From Octopus sinensis (lineage: Eukaryota): a stretch of 64,000 nucleotides of DNA. Position numbers: made by a program. The stretch spans positions 33,666,001 through 33,730,000 of the forward strand of contig NC_043010.1 in the NCBI RefSeq assembly GCF_006345805.1. The letters run 5' to 3'. How positions within the stretch are numbered: position 1 is the first letter of the stretch; every line of letters begins with the position of its first letter. This document shows positions 22,260 to 30,741 of the stretch, one piece after another.

Positions 22260-24391
22260 GGTTCCTTGCCCTTATCTGAAACATTAGCCTCTACCTCATT
22301 ATCTCTTGCAAAAATGGAGGTTGACTTCTACCTTGTTCCATTACCCCACTAGTCTACATCAGAAAAATATTCCAACCTCTTACTTTTGCCCCTGTGTGAA
22401 GGCACATGGGGCCTAGTGGTTAGGATATTCAATCTACAATCATAAGATCATGAGTTTGATTCTTGAGCAAGGCACTTTCTTTCACTTTACTCCAGTCCAC
22501 TCAGCTGGCAAAAATGAGTTGCACCTGTAATTCAAAGGGTCAACCTTGTCACATTTTTTATCACACTAAATCTCTCTGAGAGCCACATTATAGCTATGCA
22601 TGTCTGTGGAGTCCTCAGCCACTTGCACATTAATTTCAAGAGCAGGCTGTTCCATTAATTGGATTGACCGAAACTCTTGTGAAAACCAACAAAGTGCCAG
22701 TGTGTTGACTGGTATGTCCTGCCAAAATTTCTTGTTCTACTTTGCTTCAGAGTTTTTCCCCTGAGACTCAGTGTTTGAATAATGATTATAAAATATTAAA
22801 AAAATATTATTTTTTAAAAAATGAACAAGTTGTGCATTCAAACCCTACCATGGCCAACTTTGCCTTCTGTCTTTCCTCTATTTTTAAACCAAAACATTGG
22901 AGTTGGTTTAATCAACACTCATCCCCAAAACATAACCTTGGGCCTTTTTGCGTGCGCGTAGTGTGTGTGTGTGTGTGTGTGCATGTGCGTGCATGTATGT
23001 GTGTGTGCGTGTGTGTGTGTCTGGAAGTTAATATTTTTATTGTTATGGTCAACAAATTTGCAGAATTAGTTGAGTAGCAGACAGCAATTCCTTAACAACA
23101 TTTAGTTTATGGCTTCTTACATTTTGAGTTCAAATCCTACTGAGATGACTTCCCCTTTTATTTTTTTCCAGGGCCATAAATTAAAGTACCAGTCAGGTAC
23201 TGGGGGTTTCATTCAATCAATTTATTTTCTCCTCTAATAGTGTGTTGCCTTATGGCTATGATGAAAATTATTATCATCAGCATCAGCATCATTATTATTA
23301 TTATTATTATTATCATCATCATCGTCATCATCATCATCATGAGGAGCTGGCAGAATTGTTAAACTGCCGGGCAAAATGTTTAGTGACATTTCATCCATCT
23401 TTATGTTCTGAGTTAAAATTCTGCCAGGGCTGACTTGACCTTTCTTCCTTTCGGCGTCGATAAATTAAGTACCAGTGAAACACTGGGGGTCAATGTAATC
23501 GACTTGTCCCTTCCCCCAAAATTTCAGACCTTGAGTCTATAGTAGAAAGGATTATTATTATTATTATTGAGTGAGAGAGCAGTTCATGCCATCAAAGTGA
23601 CACTGGGGTAAAATATACGAAGCCCAATATACCCATCATGACTACCCGTCTGATAAAGGTACACCAGGCACATGCATCACAACCATATGTGCACGACATA
23701 GTGATCTCATATCAAGATAAACAGCACATGACCTTGCAGGTGGGGCCCAGTTAGAATTTTCTTCAGGTTGAGTAGCCCATCCTGCTCAAAAGGTCCCTGA
23801 ATAAGGGTTGCTTTAGGATGTTGAACGAAACACCTATGTTTCCAGAGGTGAATTATTCAAACCCCAAAGAATCCCTCTCAACACATGGCCATGATGCTCC
23901 CCCACTACTTCTGCTCGTGATCAGAGATGCACATATCGTCAGCCACTAAGGGACATGCTCAACTGGTTAAGGTCAAACAACTGACAAGCAAATCTGTGGT
24001 ATTGAGCAGAATATTTGCTGTAGCCCATCTTTTATACCAAGACAAAACAATGTACATGATAACACTTCCAATCAGTTAAGATCAGAAGCCATGAGAGCCA
24101 CTGCCTGGTACTGCATCAGGGCATTTATTATTTTATTATTATTATTATTATTATTATTATGGTTATTATTTGGTGGTGAGCTGGCAGAATTGTTAGCATG
24201 CCAGGCGAAATACTTAACGGTATTTCACCTGTGCTTATGTTCTGAGTTCAAATTCTGCCAAGGTTGACTTTGCCTTCATCCTTTCAGGGTCGATAAATTA
24301 AGTATCAGCAAAACACTGGGGGGTCAATGTAATCACCTAGTCCCCTCCCCCAAAATTTCAGGCCTAGTGCCTTTAGCAGAAAAGATTATTA

Positions 24392-24432
<41 letters not shown>

Positions 24433-28500: not shown

Positions 28501-30741
28501 GAGAGCACCATAGCCATGTACTGAGAGCAATTCTTTGGGGTTTGGATAATTCACCCTTGGAAGCATGGGTGTTTCGTTCATCGTCCTTAAACAAACCTTA
28601 TTCAGGGACCTTTTGAGCGGGATGGGCTACTCAACCAGAAGAAAATTCTAACTGGGCCCCACCTGCAAGGTCATGCACTGTTTATCTTGATATGAGATTA
28701 CCATATCATACACATATGGTTGTGATGCATGTGCCTGGTGTACCCCTATCAGACAGGTAGTCATGATGGGTATACTGGGTTTTGTATATTTTACCCCAGT
28801 GTCACTTTGATGGCATGCACTGCTCTCTCACTCAATAATAATAATAATAATAATAATATTCCTTTCAACTAAAGGTATAAGATCTGAAATTTGTGGGGAG
28901 GGGACTAGTCGATTACATCAACCCCAGTGCTCAACTGGTACTTAATTTCATTGACCTCAAAAACCGGAAAGGTAAAGTCGACCTCGGCAGAATTTGAACT
29001 CAGAATGTAAAGACAGATGAAATGCTGCTAAGCATTTTGCCCAGCATGCTAATGATTCTTCCAGCTCACTGCCTTAATAACAATAACAATAATAATCCTG
29101 TCTCCTATAGGCACAAAGCCTGAAATTTTGGAGATGGATGAAATCAAAAGATGGATGAAATACTGCGAAGCATTTCATCCGGTGTACCAATGATTCTGTC
29201 AGCCCACCACTTTAATAATAATATCAATAATGATGATGATGGTTTCAAATTTTGGAACCAGACCAGCAGTTTCCAAGAAGGGGCCAAGTCGATTACATCA
29301 ACTCCAGTGCTAAACTGGTACTTATTTTATCAACCCCAAAAGGATGAAAGATAGAGTTGAGTCCAGCAGCATTTGAACTCAGAATGTTAAAACAGGTGAT
29401 GCTGCTGAGCATTTTACCCAGTGTACTAACAACTCTGCCAGCTCACCACCTTAACCAGAGCAAATATGGCAAAGTGTCCCTTCCGCTGCTTGTAACCTCA
29501 GCAGCATTTGAACTCAGAATATAAAGGACTGGAAGAGGTGCCTCTAATCATTTTGACTAACATCTTAATGATTCTGCCAGTATACCAGTGTTGATACAAT
29601 CAATTACAATATTCCTTACCTCATAAGGCAGCAAGCTGGCCGAAACATTAGCATGCCAGGTGAAATGCTTAGCGCTATTTCATTTCTCTTTACGTTCTGT
29701 GTTCAAATCCCACCAAGGTCGACTTCGCCTTTCATCCTTCCGGGGTCGATAAATCAAGTACCAGTTGCATACTGGGGTTGATCTAATTGACTGCCCTCCC
29801 CCCAAATTTTGGGTCTTGTGCCTAGAGTAGAAAAGAATATTCCTTACCTCATAAATTTCTAAACCTTAAACCTGAAGACTAATCCAAGCCCTATTGCAGA
29901 GTGGTTGAGTAGCAGAGAAAGAGACACCATTTTCGTCTAATTTTTTAATTGTCTGTGTCCATAATTGTAAGAATGAACCTAATTTATTAGTTCCAGAGTC
30001 TTTTTTTTTTAGGCAAACTGACCAATTTGGCATGAACAACAGATGTAGCTTTAAATATTAATTACCCTCTACACACTCCTTATATCTGAAGCTGAGCTTT
30101 TTAGAAAGTTTGTTATTTTTATATAATCTCTTGGAGTTACCTGTAACCCACTAGGTCTACAATAGAATTAAGGATTTAACAACACTTTTGAAAGTAGAGG
30201 GACATAGAGTTCAAGGTCATTTCAGTTCCAGATTTTAATCAGAGAAAAGGCAGCTAGCTAGCAAAAACGTTAGCACACCGGGCAAAATGCTTATCAGTAT
30301 TTCGTCTGCCATTACGTTCTGGGTTCAAATTCCACCGAGGTCAGCTTTGCTTGTCATCCTTTTGGGGTTGATAAATTAAGTACCAGTTACGCACTGTAGT
30401 TGATATAATCGACTTAAACCATTTGTCTGTCCTTGTTTATCCCTTCTACGTTTAGCCCCTTAAAGAAATAAGGGCAATAAAGAAATAAGGTTTTAATCAG
30501 AGAAAATTTTGCTTTTGCTTTCCACATTATATAAATTTACTTTTATTGGAGAGACTTCAATTGCACATATTAGGCAGGGGGAACAAAGTAGTGGGGAAGG
30601 GATGCAGCGAAGGGCAACTTTACAATGTGAAAATTTGCCCTTTTTCTATCAACAATTTTTCCCCATCTTCCTTATACACCCATTTCTTTTTTTTTTTTTA
30701 CACTTTTTCATATTTGTTTGCTCTCTCTCTCTCTCTTTCTC

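What the first reader, a model, noticed from the sequence alone, without database searches (positions are those of the whole stretch)
23343..29455. Large inverted-repeat clamp around the 78-nt linker exon
Seen: SINE, 560-bp element, SINE (23343-24387, plus) is mirrored by the same three-part order on the minus strand (28014-29075). Extra plus SINEs (24745, 24994) lie upstream and minus SINEs (27810, 29240) downstream of exon 25305-25382. Known: inverted intronic repeats form dsRNA that drives ADAR editing, exon skipping and back-splicing, and coleoids edit RNA heavily. Inference: a stem of more than 1 kb loops out this exon. The mirror may reflect independent insertion into (ATT)n tails rather than one duplication.
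Basis: partly seen in the sequence, partly recalled or inferred. Interest (0 to 1): 0.7.

Follow-up and report, generated by a model that had tools for sequence, protein, structure and literature searches.

The report
Inverted repeat pair flanking SMAD4 exon
Two copies of a common octopus interspersed repeat sit in opposite orientation in the introns either side of a short SMAD4 exon and could pair into long double-stranded RNA, but they look like ordinary independent insertions and the exon is kept in every known isoform.

Summary
A 564-nt element occurs twice in the window, at 23569-24131 (+) and 28279-28842 (-), at 92.6% identity. Each copy is bracketed by ~210-nt SINE-like repeats and (ATT)n tracts in mirrored order. 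More plus-strand SINEs lie upstream and more minus-strand SINEs downstream.

The enclosed 25305-25382 is a genuine 78-nt linker exon of Octopus SMAD4, and both arms lie in its flanking introns.

The mirror is not one duplicated block. Mirror-partner SINEs are 78% and 75% identical, inside the family-wide range of 71.6 ± 5.4%. The 564-nt element belongs to a dispersed Octopus repeat family whose copies typically abut (ATT)n-type microsatellite.

The arms could form a ~565-bp near-perfect RNA duplex, a plausible ADAR substrate. The proposed exon looping-out finds no support. The exon is present in 25 of 26 cephalopod SMAD4 proteins examined, and the one exception is a truncated fragment. Four neighbouring linker cassettes vary freely.

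Editing, back-splicing and conservation across species could not be tested here. Verdict: an ordinary transposon-derived intronic inverted repeat. Low interest.

The parts
23343..23551 (+). SINE-like repeat A, outer flank of the plus arm
   Evidence: nhmmer model positions 6-213, E=6.8e-64. 78.3% identical to its mirror partner at 28860.
23569..24131 (+). ~564-nt interspersed repeat, copy 1 (core of the plus arm). (ATT)n lies on both sides, at 23552-23568 and 24132-24171.
   Evidence: 92.55% over 564 nt to the minus copy. Identity drops sharply at both (ATT)n borders. Its ORF 23575-23751 finds 24 proteins in the representative library.
24172..24385 (+). SINE-like repeat B, inner flank of the plus arm, followed by a long (ATT)n tract
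   Evidence: nhmmer 1-213, E=3.3e-65. 74.5% identical to its mirror partner at 28014.
24746..24943 (+). additional plus-strand SINE-like copy C
   Evidence: nhmmer 1-193, E=1.1e-50
24996..25205 (+). additional plus-strand SINE-like copy D; it ends 99 nt before the exon's acceptor
   Evidence: nhmmer 1-213, E=5.2e-63
25305..25382 (+). 78-nt SMAD4 linker exon; length is a multiple of 3
   Evidence: tblastn 100% to P0004 residues 305-330. AG acceptor with a long pyrimidine tract and a GTAAGA donor. Present in 25 of 26 cephalopod SMAD4 proteins.
25420..25507 (+). (CT)n microsatellite starting 38 nt downstream of the exon's donor
   Evidence: regex scan; sequence
27806..27995 (-). old minus-strand SINE-like copy, innermost on the downstream side
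   Evidence: nhmmer 3-210, E=4.8e-23
28014..28226 (-). SINE-like repeat E, inner flank of the minus arm
   Evidence: nhmmer 1-213, E=1.7e-63
28279..28842 (-). ~564-nt interspersed repeat, copy 2 (core of the minus arm), with (ATT)n-type tracts on both sides
28860..29073 (-). SINE-like repeat F, outer flank of the minus arm
   Evidence: nhmmer 1-213, E=2.2e-65
29096..29580 (-). further minus-strand SINE-like copies and fragments: 29096-29134, 29147-29209, 29243-29450, 29494-29580

Best explanation
The 'clamp' is a by-product of transposon accumulation in two long introns of the Octopus SMAD4 gene.

**How it arose.** SINE-like repeats with (ATT)n tails built head-to-tail, same-orientation arrays. 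They did so by inserting again and again at ATT-rich sites, including one another's tails. One array is in plus orientation upstream of the 78-nt linker exon, and one is in minus orientation downstream. A younger ~564-nt non-coding interspersed repeat also ends in (ATT)n and typically lies beside (ATT)n. It landed independently in an (ATT)n tract of each array. That gives the same SINE / element / SINE order in mirror image.

**What it probably does.** Both copies lie in the same pre-mRNA, so they can pair into a ~565-bp, 92.6%-matched duplex. This step is inferred. The most likely consequence is promiscuous ADAR hyper-editing of intronic RNA that is then degraded with the introns. Exon inclusion and SMAD4 protein would not be affected: the exon has strong splice sites and behaves as constitutive.

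**Shown:** anatomy, gene context, family membership, lack of co-duplication, and exon inclusion in catalogued isoforms.

**Inferred:** the insertion mechanism, duplex formation in vivo, and editing.
For: **Anatomy and pairing**
- Core arms are 564 nt at 92.55% and are the only two copies in the window.
- The longest perfect run is 97 nt. There are 59 differing columns of 572: 33 transitions, 9 transversions, 17 gap columns.
- Duplex energy is -1006 kcal/mol with 577 pairs, against -205 ± 8 for 10 shuffles.

**Not one duplication**
- Mirror-partner SINEs are 78.3% and 74.5% identical.
- The family background is 71.6 ± 5.4% (maximum 84.6%) over 210 pairs of 21 near-full copies.
- Neither mirror pair is a reciprocal best match, and the non-mirror cross pairs score the same, 77.8% and 73.4%.
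- Identity falls from about 92% to about 75% exactly at the (ATT)n borders on both sides.

**Dispersed family**
- The 59-aa ORF of the element finds 24 proteins at E≤1e-3 among 1.84 billion representatives.
- Of 10 hits looked up, 6 clusters are named Octopus bimaculoides proteins, 3 are unnamed records, and 1 is a Pseudomonas repeat protein at 29% identity that I take as spurious.
- 8 of the 11 database copies that extend upstream of the element start carry I/L/Y runs, the translation of (ATT)n-type repeats, at that border.
- The two window copies are 52/59 identical in this ORF, close to the best database copy at 86% over 36 aa.

**Tail-targeted arrays**
- 34 SINE hits cover 8.5% of the window.
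- Their orientations form only 8 runs, permutation P=0.00056.
- 9 of 22 copies with an intact 5' end have (ATT)≥3 within 30 nt upstream, although such tracts cover under 1% of the window.
- Copies at 29627 and 33638 show target-site duplications that begin ATATT.
- An octopus RTE LINE has a microsatellite 3' UTR, and the authors call microsatellites a common feature of RTE elements (passage of PMC9115989).

**Gene context**
- The exons match Octopus SMAD4 isoforms at 97-100%.

**Exon is constitutive**
- Exon sequence is present in 25 of 26 cluster members, and the exception, P0137, is a 203-aa fragment.
- The Q-rich exon is present in 8 of 26, the STTT exon in 13 of 26 and the IPVLV microexon in 8 of 26. 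The N-terminal APSRL cassette also varies.

**Literature** (passages of PMC9699675; passages of the bioRxiv preprint 10.1101/2020.01.19.911685)
- Most octopus A-to-I editing lies in introns and 3' UTRs with hairpins.
- circRNAs are expressed at low levels overall.
- Editing sites in metazoans concentrate where pre-mRNA can fold on a nearby reverse complement.
Against: - No RNA data were available, so duplex formation and editing are inference only.
- The two core copies are the only pair in the 64-kb window at ≥88% identity over ≥100 nt, apart from a 125-nt direct tandem repeat. They lie only 4 kb apart. Under random genome-wide insertion that would be somewhat unlikely, which leaves room for a local copying event.
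- Isoform catalogues are gene-model predictions and assembled transcripts. A rare or tissue-restricted skipped isoform, or a non-polyadenylated circle, would not appear in them.
- The tRNA origin of the SINE-like repeat was not confirmed. ARAGORN found nothing in 21 copies or in the consensus, and Rfam had no match reaching its threshold. 'SINE' is therefore a structural label here.
- The partner LINE was not identified.
Confidence: 0.65

Rival explanations
1. One reading: the inverted arms form a functional RNA clamp that loops out the 78-nt exon. This would drive regulated exon skipping or back-splicing, possibly tuned by ADAR editing of the stem.
For: - Both arms lie in the flanking introns, 918 nt upstream of the acceptor and 2.6 kb downstream of the donor.
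- The central duplex is long and strong.
- The exon length is a multiple of 3, so skipping would keep the reading frame.
- The SMAD4 linker is heavily alternatively spliced in Octopus and in human cells (passages of the review PMC6218760).
- Inverted repeats are described as facilitating back-splicing in mammalian cells (passages of PMC4479058).
Against: - The exon is present in 25 of 26 cephalopod SMAD4 proteins, and the exception is a truncated fragment. It is the one linker cassette in this stretch that never varies, even in the shortest isoforms of 444 and 468 aa.
- An in-frame skip would not be removed by nonsense-mediated decay, so it should have been catalogued if common (inference).
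- The splice sites are strong.
- A 78-nt single-exon circle would be very small. Large exons are reported to be preferentially circularised (passage of PMC4479058).
- The downstream arm is transcribed about 2.9 kb after the exon, so the exon can be defined before the stem can form (inference).
Confidence: 0.1
2. Local copying: the second core copy was made from the first, 4 kb away, by DNA repair or gene conversion primed in the identical (ATT)n tracts on both sides. It would not be a separate retrotransposition. The functional outcome is the same as in the best explanation.
For: - The two copies are the most similar long repeat pair in the window and lie close together.
- Both borders fall in (ATT)n tracts that could serve as microhomology.
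- The copies are slightly more alike in the ORF (88%) than either is to the best database copy (86% over a shorter stretch).
Against: - The family is dispersed, and its other copies also abut (ATT)n-type repeats (8 of 11). Precise (ATT)n borders are therefore expected from ordinary insertion.
- 86% against 88% is no real difference.
- The pair was chosen for attention after the fact, so its proximity carries little weight.
Confidence: 0.15
3. One inverted segmental duplication of the whole three-part block (SINE, element, SINE).
For: The same three-part order and similar spacing occur in both arms. One blastn segment of 1072 nt at 84.1% spans all three parts.
Against: - A single duplication predicts equal divergence across the block.
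- Observed identities are 92.6% for the core but 78.3% and 74.5% for the flanking SINEs. That equals the family background and the non-mirror cross pairs.
- The switch in identity is abrupt at the (ATT)n borders.
Confidence: 0.03

Closest known systems
Inverted intronic repeat pairs, such as inverted Alu pairs in primates, that form dsRNA in pre-mRNA, are hyper-edited by ADAR and can favour back-splicing
   Same: - Two copies of an interspersed repeat lie in opposite orientation in the introns flanking an exon of one transcription unit.
- They have long, near-perfect complementarity.
- The host lineage has abundant intronic editing (PMC9699675; PMC526178, search listing and abstract only).
   Different: - The core arm is a ~564-nt octopus-specific repeat rather than a ~300-nt Alu.
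- It is nested in oriented SINE arrays.
- No editing or circle has been shown for this locus.
- The enclosed exon is only 78 nt and appears constitutive.
SINEs and other non-autonomous retroposons with simple-repeat tails, mobilised by LINEs that end in microsatellites (RTE type)
   Same: - ~210-nt dispersed repeat making up 8.5% of the window.
- (ATT)n tail.
- Target-site duplications in some copies.
- Head-to-tail arrays.
- An octopus RTE LINE has a microsatellite 3' UTR (PMC9115989).
   Different: - No tRNA-like head was detected.
- The partner LINE was not identified in the window.
- I recall octopus SINE family names (OR1, OR2, OK; Ohshima and Okada 1994, seen only as a citation). I could not compare sequences with them.
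Alternative splicing of SMAD4 linker exons in vertebrates
   Same: The linker between the MH1 and MH2 domains is built of several short exons that are combinatorially skipped (review PMC6218760, passages; Octopus isoforms).
   Different: In Octopus this particular 78-nt exon is the invariant one. The variable cassettes are its neighbours, none of which is enclosed by the 564-nt pair.

Membership tests
Exon-flanking inverted repeat pair (dsRNA / ADAR substrate / circRNA-promoting type) | Two related repeats in opposite orientation | tested here: met
   620 nt at 91% complementary; 564 nt at 92.55%
Exon-flanking inverted repeat pair (dsRNA / ADAR substrate / circRNA-promoting type) | Both arms within one pre-mRNA, in the introns on either side of an exon | tested here: met
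   SMAD4 exons map to the plus strand at 41-336, 12625-12642, 25305-25382 and 36249-36320. The arms lie at 23343-24385 and 28014-29073.
Exon-flanking inverted repeat pair (dsRNA / ADAR substrate / circRNA-promoting type) | Clustered A-to-I editing in the arms | not testable with these tools
   No RNA reads or editing-site tables for this locus were available.
Exon-flanking inverted repeat pair (dsRNA / ADAR substrate / circRNA-promoting type) | Back-splice junction or exon-skipped product from the enclosed exon | tested here: inconclusive
   No skipped form among 26 catalogued proteins. Circles cannot be seen in protein catalogues. The supplement tables of PMC9699675 that could be read held no circRNA list.
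tRNA-derived SINE | tRNA-like 5' head | tested here: not met
   ARAGORN found 0 genes in 22000-31000, and none in 21 copies or the consensus. No tRNA match in Rfam at E≤1. Box-like motifs seen by eye were not tested.
tRNA-derived SINE | Short, dispersed, many diverged copies, simple-repeat tail, target-site duplications | tested here: met
   34 hits, 8.5% of the window. Mean pairwise identity 71.6%. (ATT)n tails, and duplications at 29627 and 33638.
Inverted segmental duplication | Uniform divergence along the duplicated block | tested here: not met
   Core 92.6% against flanks 78.3% and 74.5%, which equals the family background.
SMAD4 (co-SMAD) gene | MH2-domain exons and linker matching annotated SMAD4 | tested here: met
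   The last exon is 99% identical to Octopus SMAD4 isoforms, whose precomputed Pfam domains are PF03165 and PF03166. Eight exons match P0004 at 97-100%.

The most novel reading that the evidence does not exclude
The 564-nt pair, reinforced by opposed SINE arrays, could act as an editing-sensitive RNA switch on the SMAD4 linker. In tissues or conditions with low ADAR activity the intact stem would loop out the 78-nt exon. The result would be an in-frame SMAD4 lacking 26 linker residues, or a tiny circle. Heavy editing in neurons would melt the stem and enforce inclusion. This would link coleoid hyper-editing to TGF-beta/BMP signalling output.
Probability: 0.05. Interest if true: 0.55.

Novelty: new member of a known kind. 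Interest (0 to 1): 0.2.

Why it matters
If the stem forms, this locus is one concrete example of how oriented repeat arrays create long intronic dsRNA in coleoid genes. That is the kind of substrate thought to absorb much of their abundant non-coding A-to-I editing.

It also shows a simple way mirror-image repeat architectures can arise without duplication. Repeated insertion at (ATT)n tails builds same-orientation arrays, and a later element targets the same tails.

For SMAD4 itself nothing suggests a consequence, because the enclosed exon is the invariant piece of an otherwise highly variable linker.

Tried and rejected
- **Known RNA families in the arms or loop.** An Rfam scan of 20000-32000 at E≤1 gave 10 weak matches, all far below the gathering scores (microsatellite-like miRNA models, CrcZ on AT repeats). 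I rejected them.
- **tRNA head of the SINE.** ARAGORN was negative.
- **Coding capacity of the 564-nt element.** One frame has only two stops, at the same places in both copies, but Pfam finds nothing in the 59-aa ORF. Database relatives are short uncharacterised models or spurious first exons. I treat the element as non-coding.
- **Whole-block duplication.** Rejected on SINE identities.
- **Literature.** Two look-ups of the 2015 octopus genome paper failed because the paper is not held. The passages returned from PMC9795677 said nothing about SINEs, because the search term also matches 'sinensis'. The readable supplements of PMC9699675 only list SMAD4 as single-copy. Its PDF supplement (figures S1, S2) could not be read and may bear on intronic editing and circRNA levels.
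- **Related genomes.** The only open DNA collection holds bacteria and archaea. Presence of the arms in other cephalopods therefore stayed unchecked.
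Full report
**What is there**

The region holds a large inverted repeat.
- The repeat finder gives arms 23551-24170 and 28232-28851: 620 nt, 91% complementary, 4061 nt apart.
- With blastn the core is a 564-nt element, 23569-24131 on the plus strand and 28279-28842 on the minus strand. Identity is 92.55%, and there is no third copy in the 64-kb window.
- A profile built from 11 copies of the ~210-nt SINE-like repeat finds 34 hits, 8.5% of the window.
  - plus strand: 23343, 24172, 24746, 24996
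  - minus strand: 27806, 28014, 28860, 29243, plus fragments at 29096, 29147 and 29494
- The order SINE / (ATT)n / 564-nt element / (ATT)n / SINE is mirrored as described.
- The whole arm aligns as one 1072-nt segment at 84.1%. That is the strongest inverted pair in the window; the next is 452 nt at 79.2%.
It is far beyond chance: duplex energy is -1006 kcal/mol, against -205 ± 8 for 10 shuffled partners.

**Gene context**

- The window carries the 3' two-thirds of an Octopus SMAD4 gene on the plus strand.
- A search with the translation of the last exon alone (60184-60408) returned Octopus bimaculoides and O. sinensis 'mothers against decapentaplegic homolog 4' isoforms at 99% identity.
- A local tblastn of database isoform P0004 (O. 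sinensis X2) against the window places these exons, at 97-100% identity:
  - about 41-336, the Q-rich exon
  - 25305-25382
  - 36249-36320
  - 47899-47937
  - four MH2-domain exons, at 55233-55417 and about 57088-57257, 59256-59395 and 60182-60411
- An 18-nt microexon, absent from P0004, sits at 12625-12642. I located it by motif search; it encodes the IPVLV stretch seen in 8 of the 26 isoforms.
All comparisons were made exon by exon.
- 25305-25382 is therefore a genuine 78-nt linker exon, with an AG acceptor after a long pyrimidine tract and a GTAAGA donor.
- Both arms lie in its two flanking introns.

**Is the mirror one duplication?**

No.
- Among 21 near-full SINE copies, the 210 pairwise identities average 71.6% (SD 5.4, maximum 84.6).
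- The mirror partners score 78.3% (23343 with 28860) and 74.5% (24172 with 28014).
- The non-mirror cross pairs score 77.8% and 73.4%.
- Neither mirror pair is a reciprocal best match.
- Identity changes abruptly from about 92% to about 75% at the (ATT)n tracts on both sides of the core.
- A block duplication would give uniform divergence, so the flanking SINEs were not copied together with the core.

**What is the 564-nt element?**

- It has no Pfam match and no Rfam match.
- Its 59-aa ORF (23575-23751) finds 24 proteins at E≤1e-3 among 1.84 billion representatives.
- Of 10 hits looked up, 6 clusters are named Octopus bimaculoides proteins, mostly short 'uncharacterized' models. Three are unnamed records. 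One is a Pseudomonas repeat protein at 29% identity that I regard as spurious.
- The element is therefore a dispersed Octopus repeat that has leaked into gene models.
- Of the 11 database copies that extend upstream of the element's start, 8 carry runs of I, L or Y exactly at that border. Those runs are the translation of ATT/TTA/TAT repeats. Lying next to (ATT)n is thus typical of the family and not special to this locus.
- The two window copies are 52/59 identical in this ORF. The best database copy is 86% identical to each of them over 36 residues. The window pair is not an outlier in similarity.

**How the architecture probably arose (inference)**

- SINE orientations fall into only 8 runs among 34 hits, permutation P=0.00056.
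- 9 of 22 copies with an intact 5' end have (ATT)≥3 within 30 nt upstream, although such tracts cover under 1% of the window.
- Isolated copies show target-site duplications beginning ATATT, at 29627 and 33638.
- Three copies at 34363-34916 are separated by the same ATATT(T/C)GTACATGCA sequence.
- This fits retroposons whose (AUU)n tail primes at ATT-rich nicks. Each insertion recreates a target, and arrays then grow head to tail in one orientation.
- An octopus RTE LINE with a microsatellite 3' UTR has been described, and its authors call microsatellites a common feature of RTE elements (passage of PMC9115989).
- Two arrays of opposite orientation happen to flank the exon, and the younger 564-nt element landed in a tail of each.
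- A local repair or conversion event primed in the (ATT)n tracts cannot be excluded, because the two copies lie only 4 kb apart. I give it 0.15.

*Pairing is plausible.*
- The core has perfect runs of 97, 38, 34, 34 and 30 nt.
- It has no competing partner in the window.
- The SINE flanks have many alternative partners.

*Editing of such a stem is expected from the literature but could not be tested.*
- Most octopus editing lies in introns and 3' UTRs rich in hairpins (PMC9699675, passages).
- Metazoan editing sites cluster where pre-mRNA can pair with a nearby reverse complement (bioRxiv 10.1101/2020.01.19.911685, passages).

*Exon looping-out is not supported.*
- I read all 26 members of the six cephalopod SMAD4 clusters found.
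- The exon sequence is present in 25 of them:
  - 24 carry it in full, judged by the MGASM anchor.
  - P0001 starts inside it.
  - The one protein without it, P0137, is a 203-aa fragment that ends before it.
- In the same set other cassettes vary: the Q-rich exon is present in 8 of 26, the STTT exon in 13 of 26 and the IPVLV microexon in 8 of 26. The N-terminal APSRL cassette also varies.
- The exon is kept even in the shortest isoforms, 444 and 468 aa.
- Skipping would be in frame, so a common skipped form should have been catalogued (inference).
- A 78-nt circle would be unusually small. Large exons are reported to be preferentially circularised (PMC4479058, passage).

*Limits of this evidence.*
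- These catalogues are predictions and assemblies.
- Rare, tissue-restricted or non-polyadenylated products would be missed.

**Comparison with known systems**

- The locus works like the well-known exon-flanking inverted repeat pairs of mammals, such as inverted Alus. It meets their structural criteria. The functional criteria (editing clusters, back-splice reads) are untested.
- The ~210-nt repeat behaves like a SINE: short, dispersed, simple-repeat tail, target-site duplications. However, no tRNA-like head was found, so that label is structural.
- SMAD4 linker exons are also combinatorially skipped in human cells (review PMC6218760, passages). In Octopus this exon is the invariant one.
- The linker alignment across 16 lophotrochozoan SMAD4 proteins (15 molluscs and the annelid Owenia) shows the exon's sequence well conserved only within cephalopods.

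**What stayed unchecked**

- No cephalopod genome or RNA-seq collection was available.
- As a result, conservation of the arms, family copy number at DNA level, editing and junction reads are all open.
- The PDF supplement of PMC9699675 could not be read.

**Verdict**

- This is a real, well-described structure with an ordinary origin. There is no sign of an effect on the mature mRNA.
- It is a new member of a known kind.
- Interest 0.2.

Noticed in passing
window-wide; e.g. 2134-2169, 19839-19900, 22140-22255, 25420-25507, 38994-39033, 61233-61276: (CT)n microsatellites of 8 or more units occur 10 times on the plus strand, the sense strand of SMAD4. (AG)n of 8 or more units occurs 0 times on that strand. 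One tract of 88 nt starts 38 nt after the donor of the 78-nt exon. The strand asymmetry is unexplained. Possible causes are a tail of an oriented element, or selection against AG-rich runs in sense introns.
   Followed up: partly
34363-34916 (minus strand): Three SINE-like copies lie head to tail, each separated by the same ATATT(T/C)GTACATGCA sequence. This points either to repeated insertion at a target regenerated by the target-site duplication or to tandem duplication of SINE plus flank.
   Followed up: no
12625-12642: An 18-nt microexon encodes (M/V)IPVLV and has canonical splice sites. It is included in 8 of 26 catalogued cephalopod SMAD4 proteins. The Octopus SMAD4 linker has at least five independently variable cassettes.
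   Followed up: partly
26158-26394 (plus strand), inside the loop between the arms: An open frame holds a C2H2-like zinc-finger remnant (CxxC...HxxxH). Pfam zf-C2HE scores E=7.4e-4, below the curated cut-off. It is probably a decayed fragment of a zinc-finger gene or a transposon.
   Followed up: partly
13606-14043 (+) against 41624-41920, 46241-46637 and 47096-47538 (-): A second repeat family of about 300-450 nt, at 72-79% identity, has one plus copy just downstream of the microexon and three minus copies upstream of the 47899 exon. This is another potential long-range pairing that would span the 78-nt and STTT exons.
   Followed up: no
48916-49347 (+) and 62396-62964 (-): Open frames here resemble, from memory, the C-terminal part of non-LTR retrotransposon proteins (motif ...GHV.RM...). 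Pfam found nothing at E≤0.01. They are possible LINE remnants, and no link to the SINE tail was established.
   Followed up: partly
23575-24135 (+) and 28276-28827 (-): One reading frame of the 564-nt element is interrupted by only two stops, at the same positions in both copies. A diverged database copy, P0163, reads through most of it. The element may descend from a coding sequence. No family match was found.
   Followed up: partly
54311-54591: A direct tandem repeat of about 125 nt at 89.6% is the only other repeat pair in the window at 88% identity or more over 100 nt or more. The surrounding 54250-54650 reads as a repetitive C/H-rich frame.
   Followed up: no
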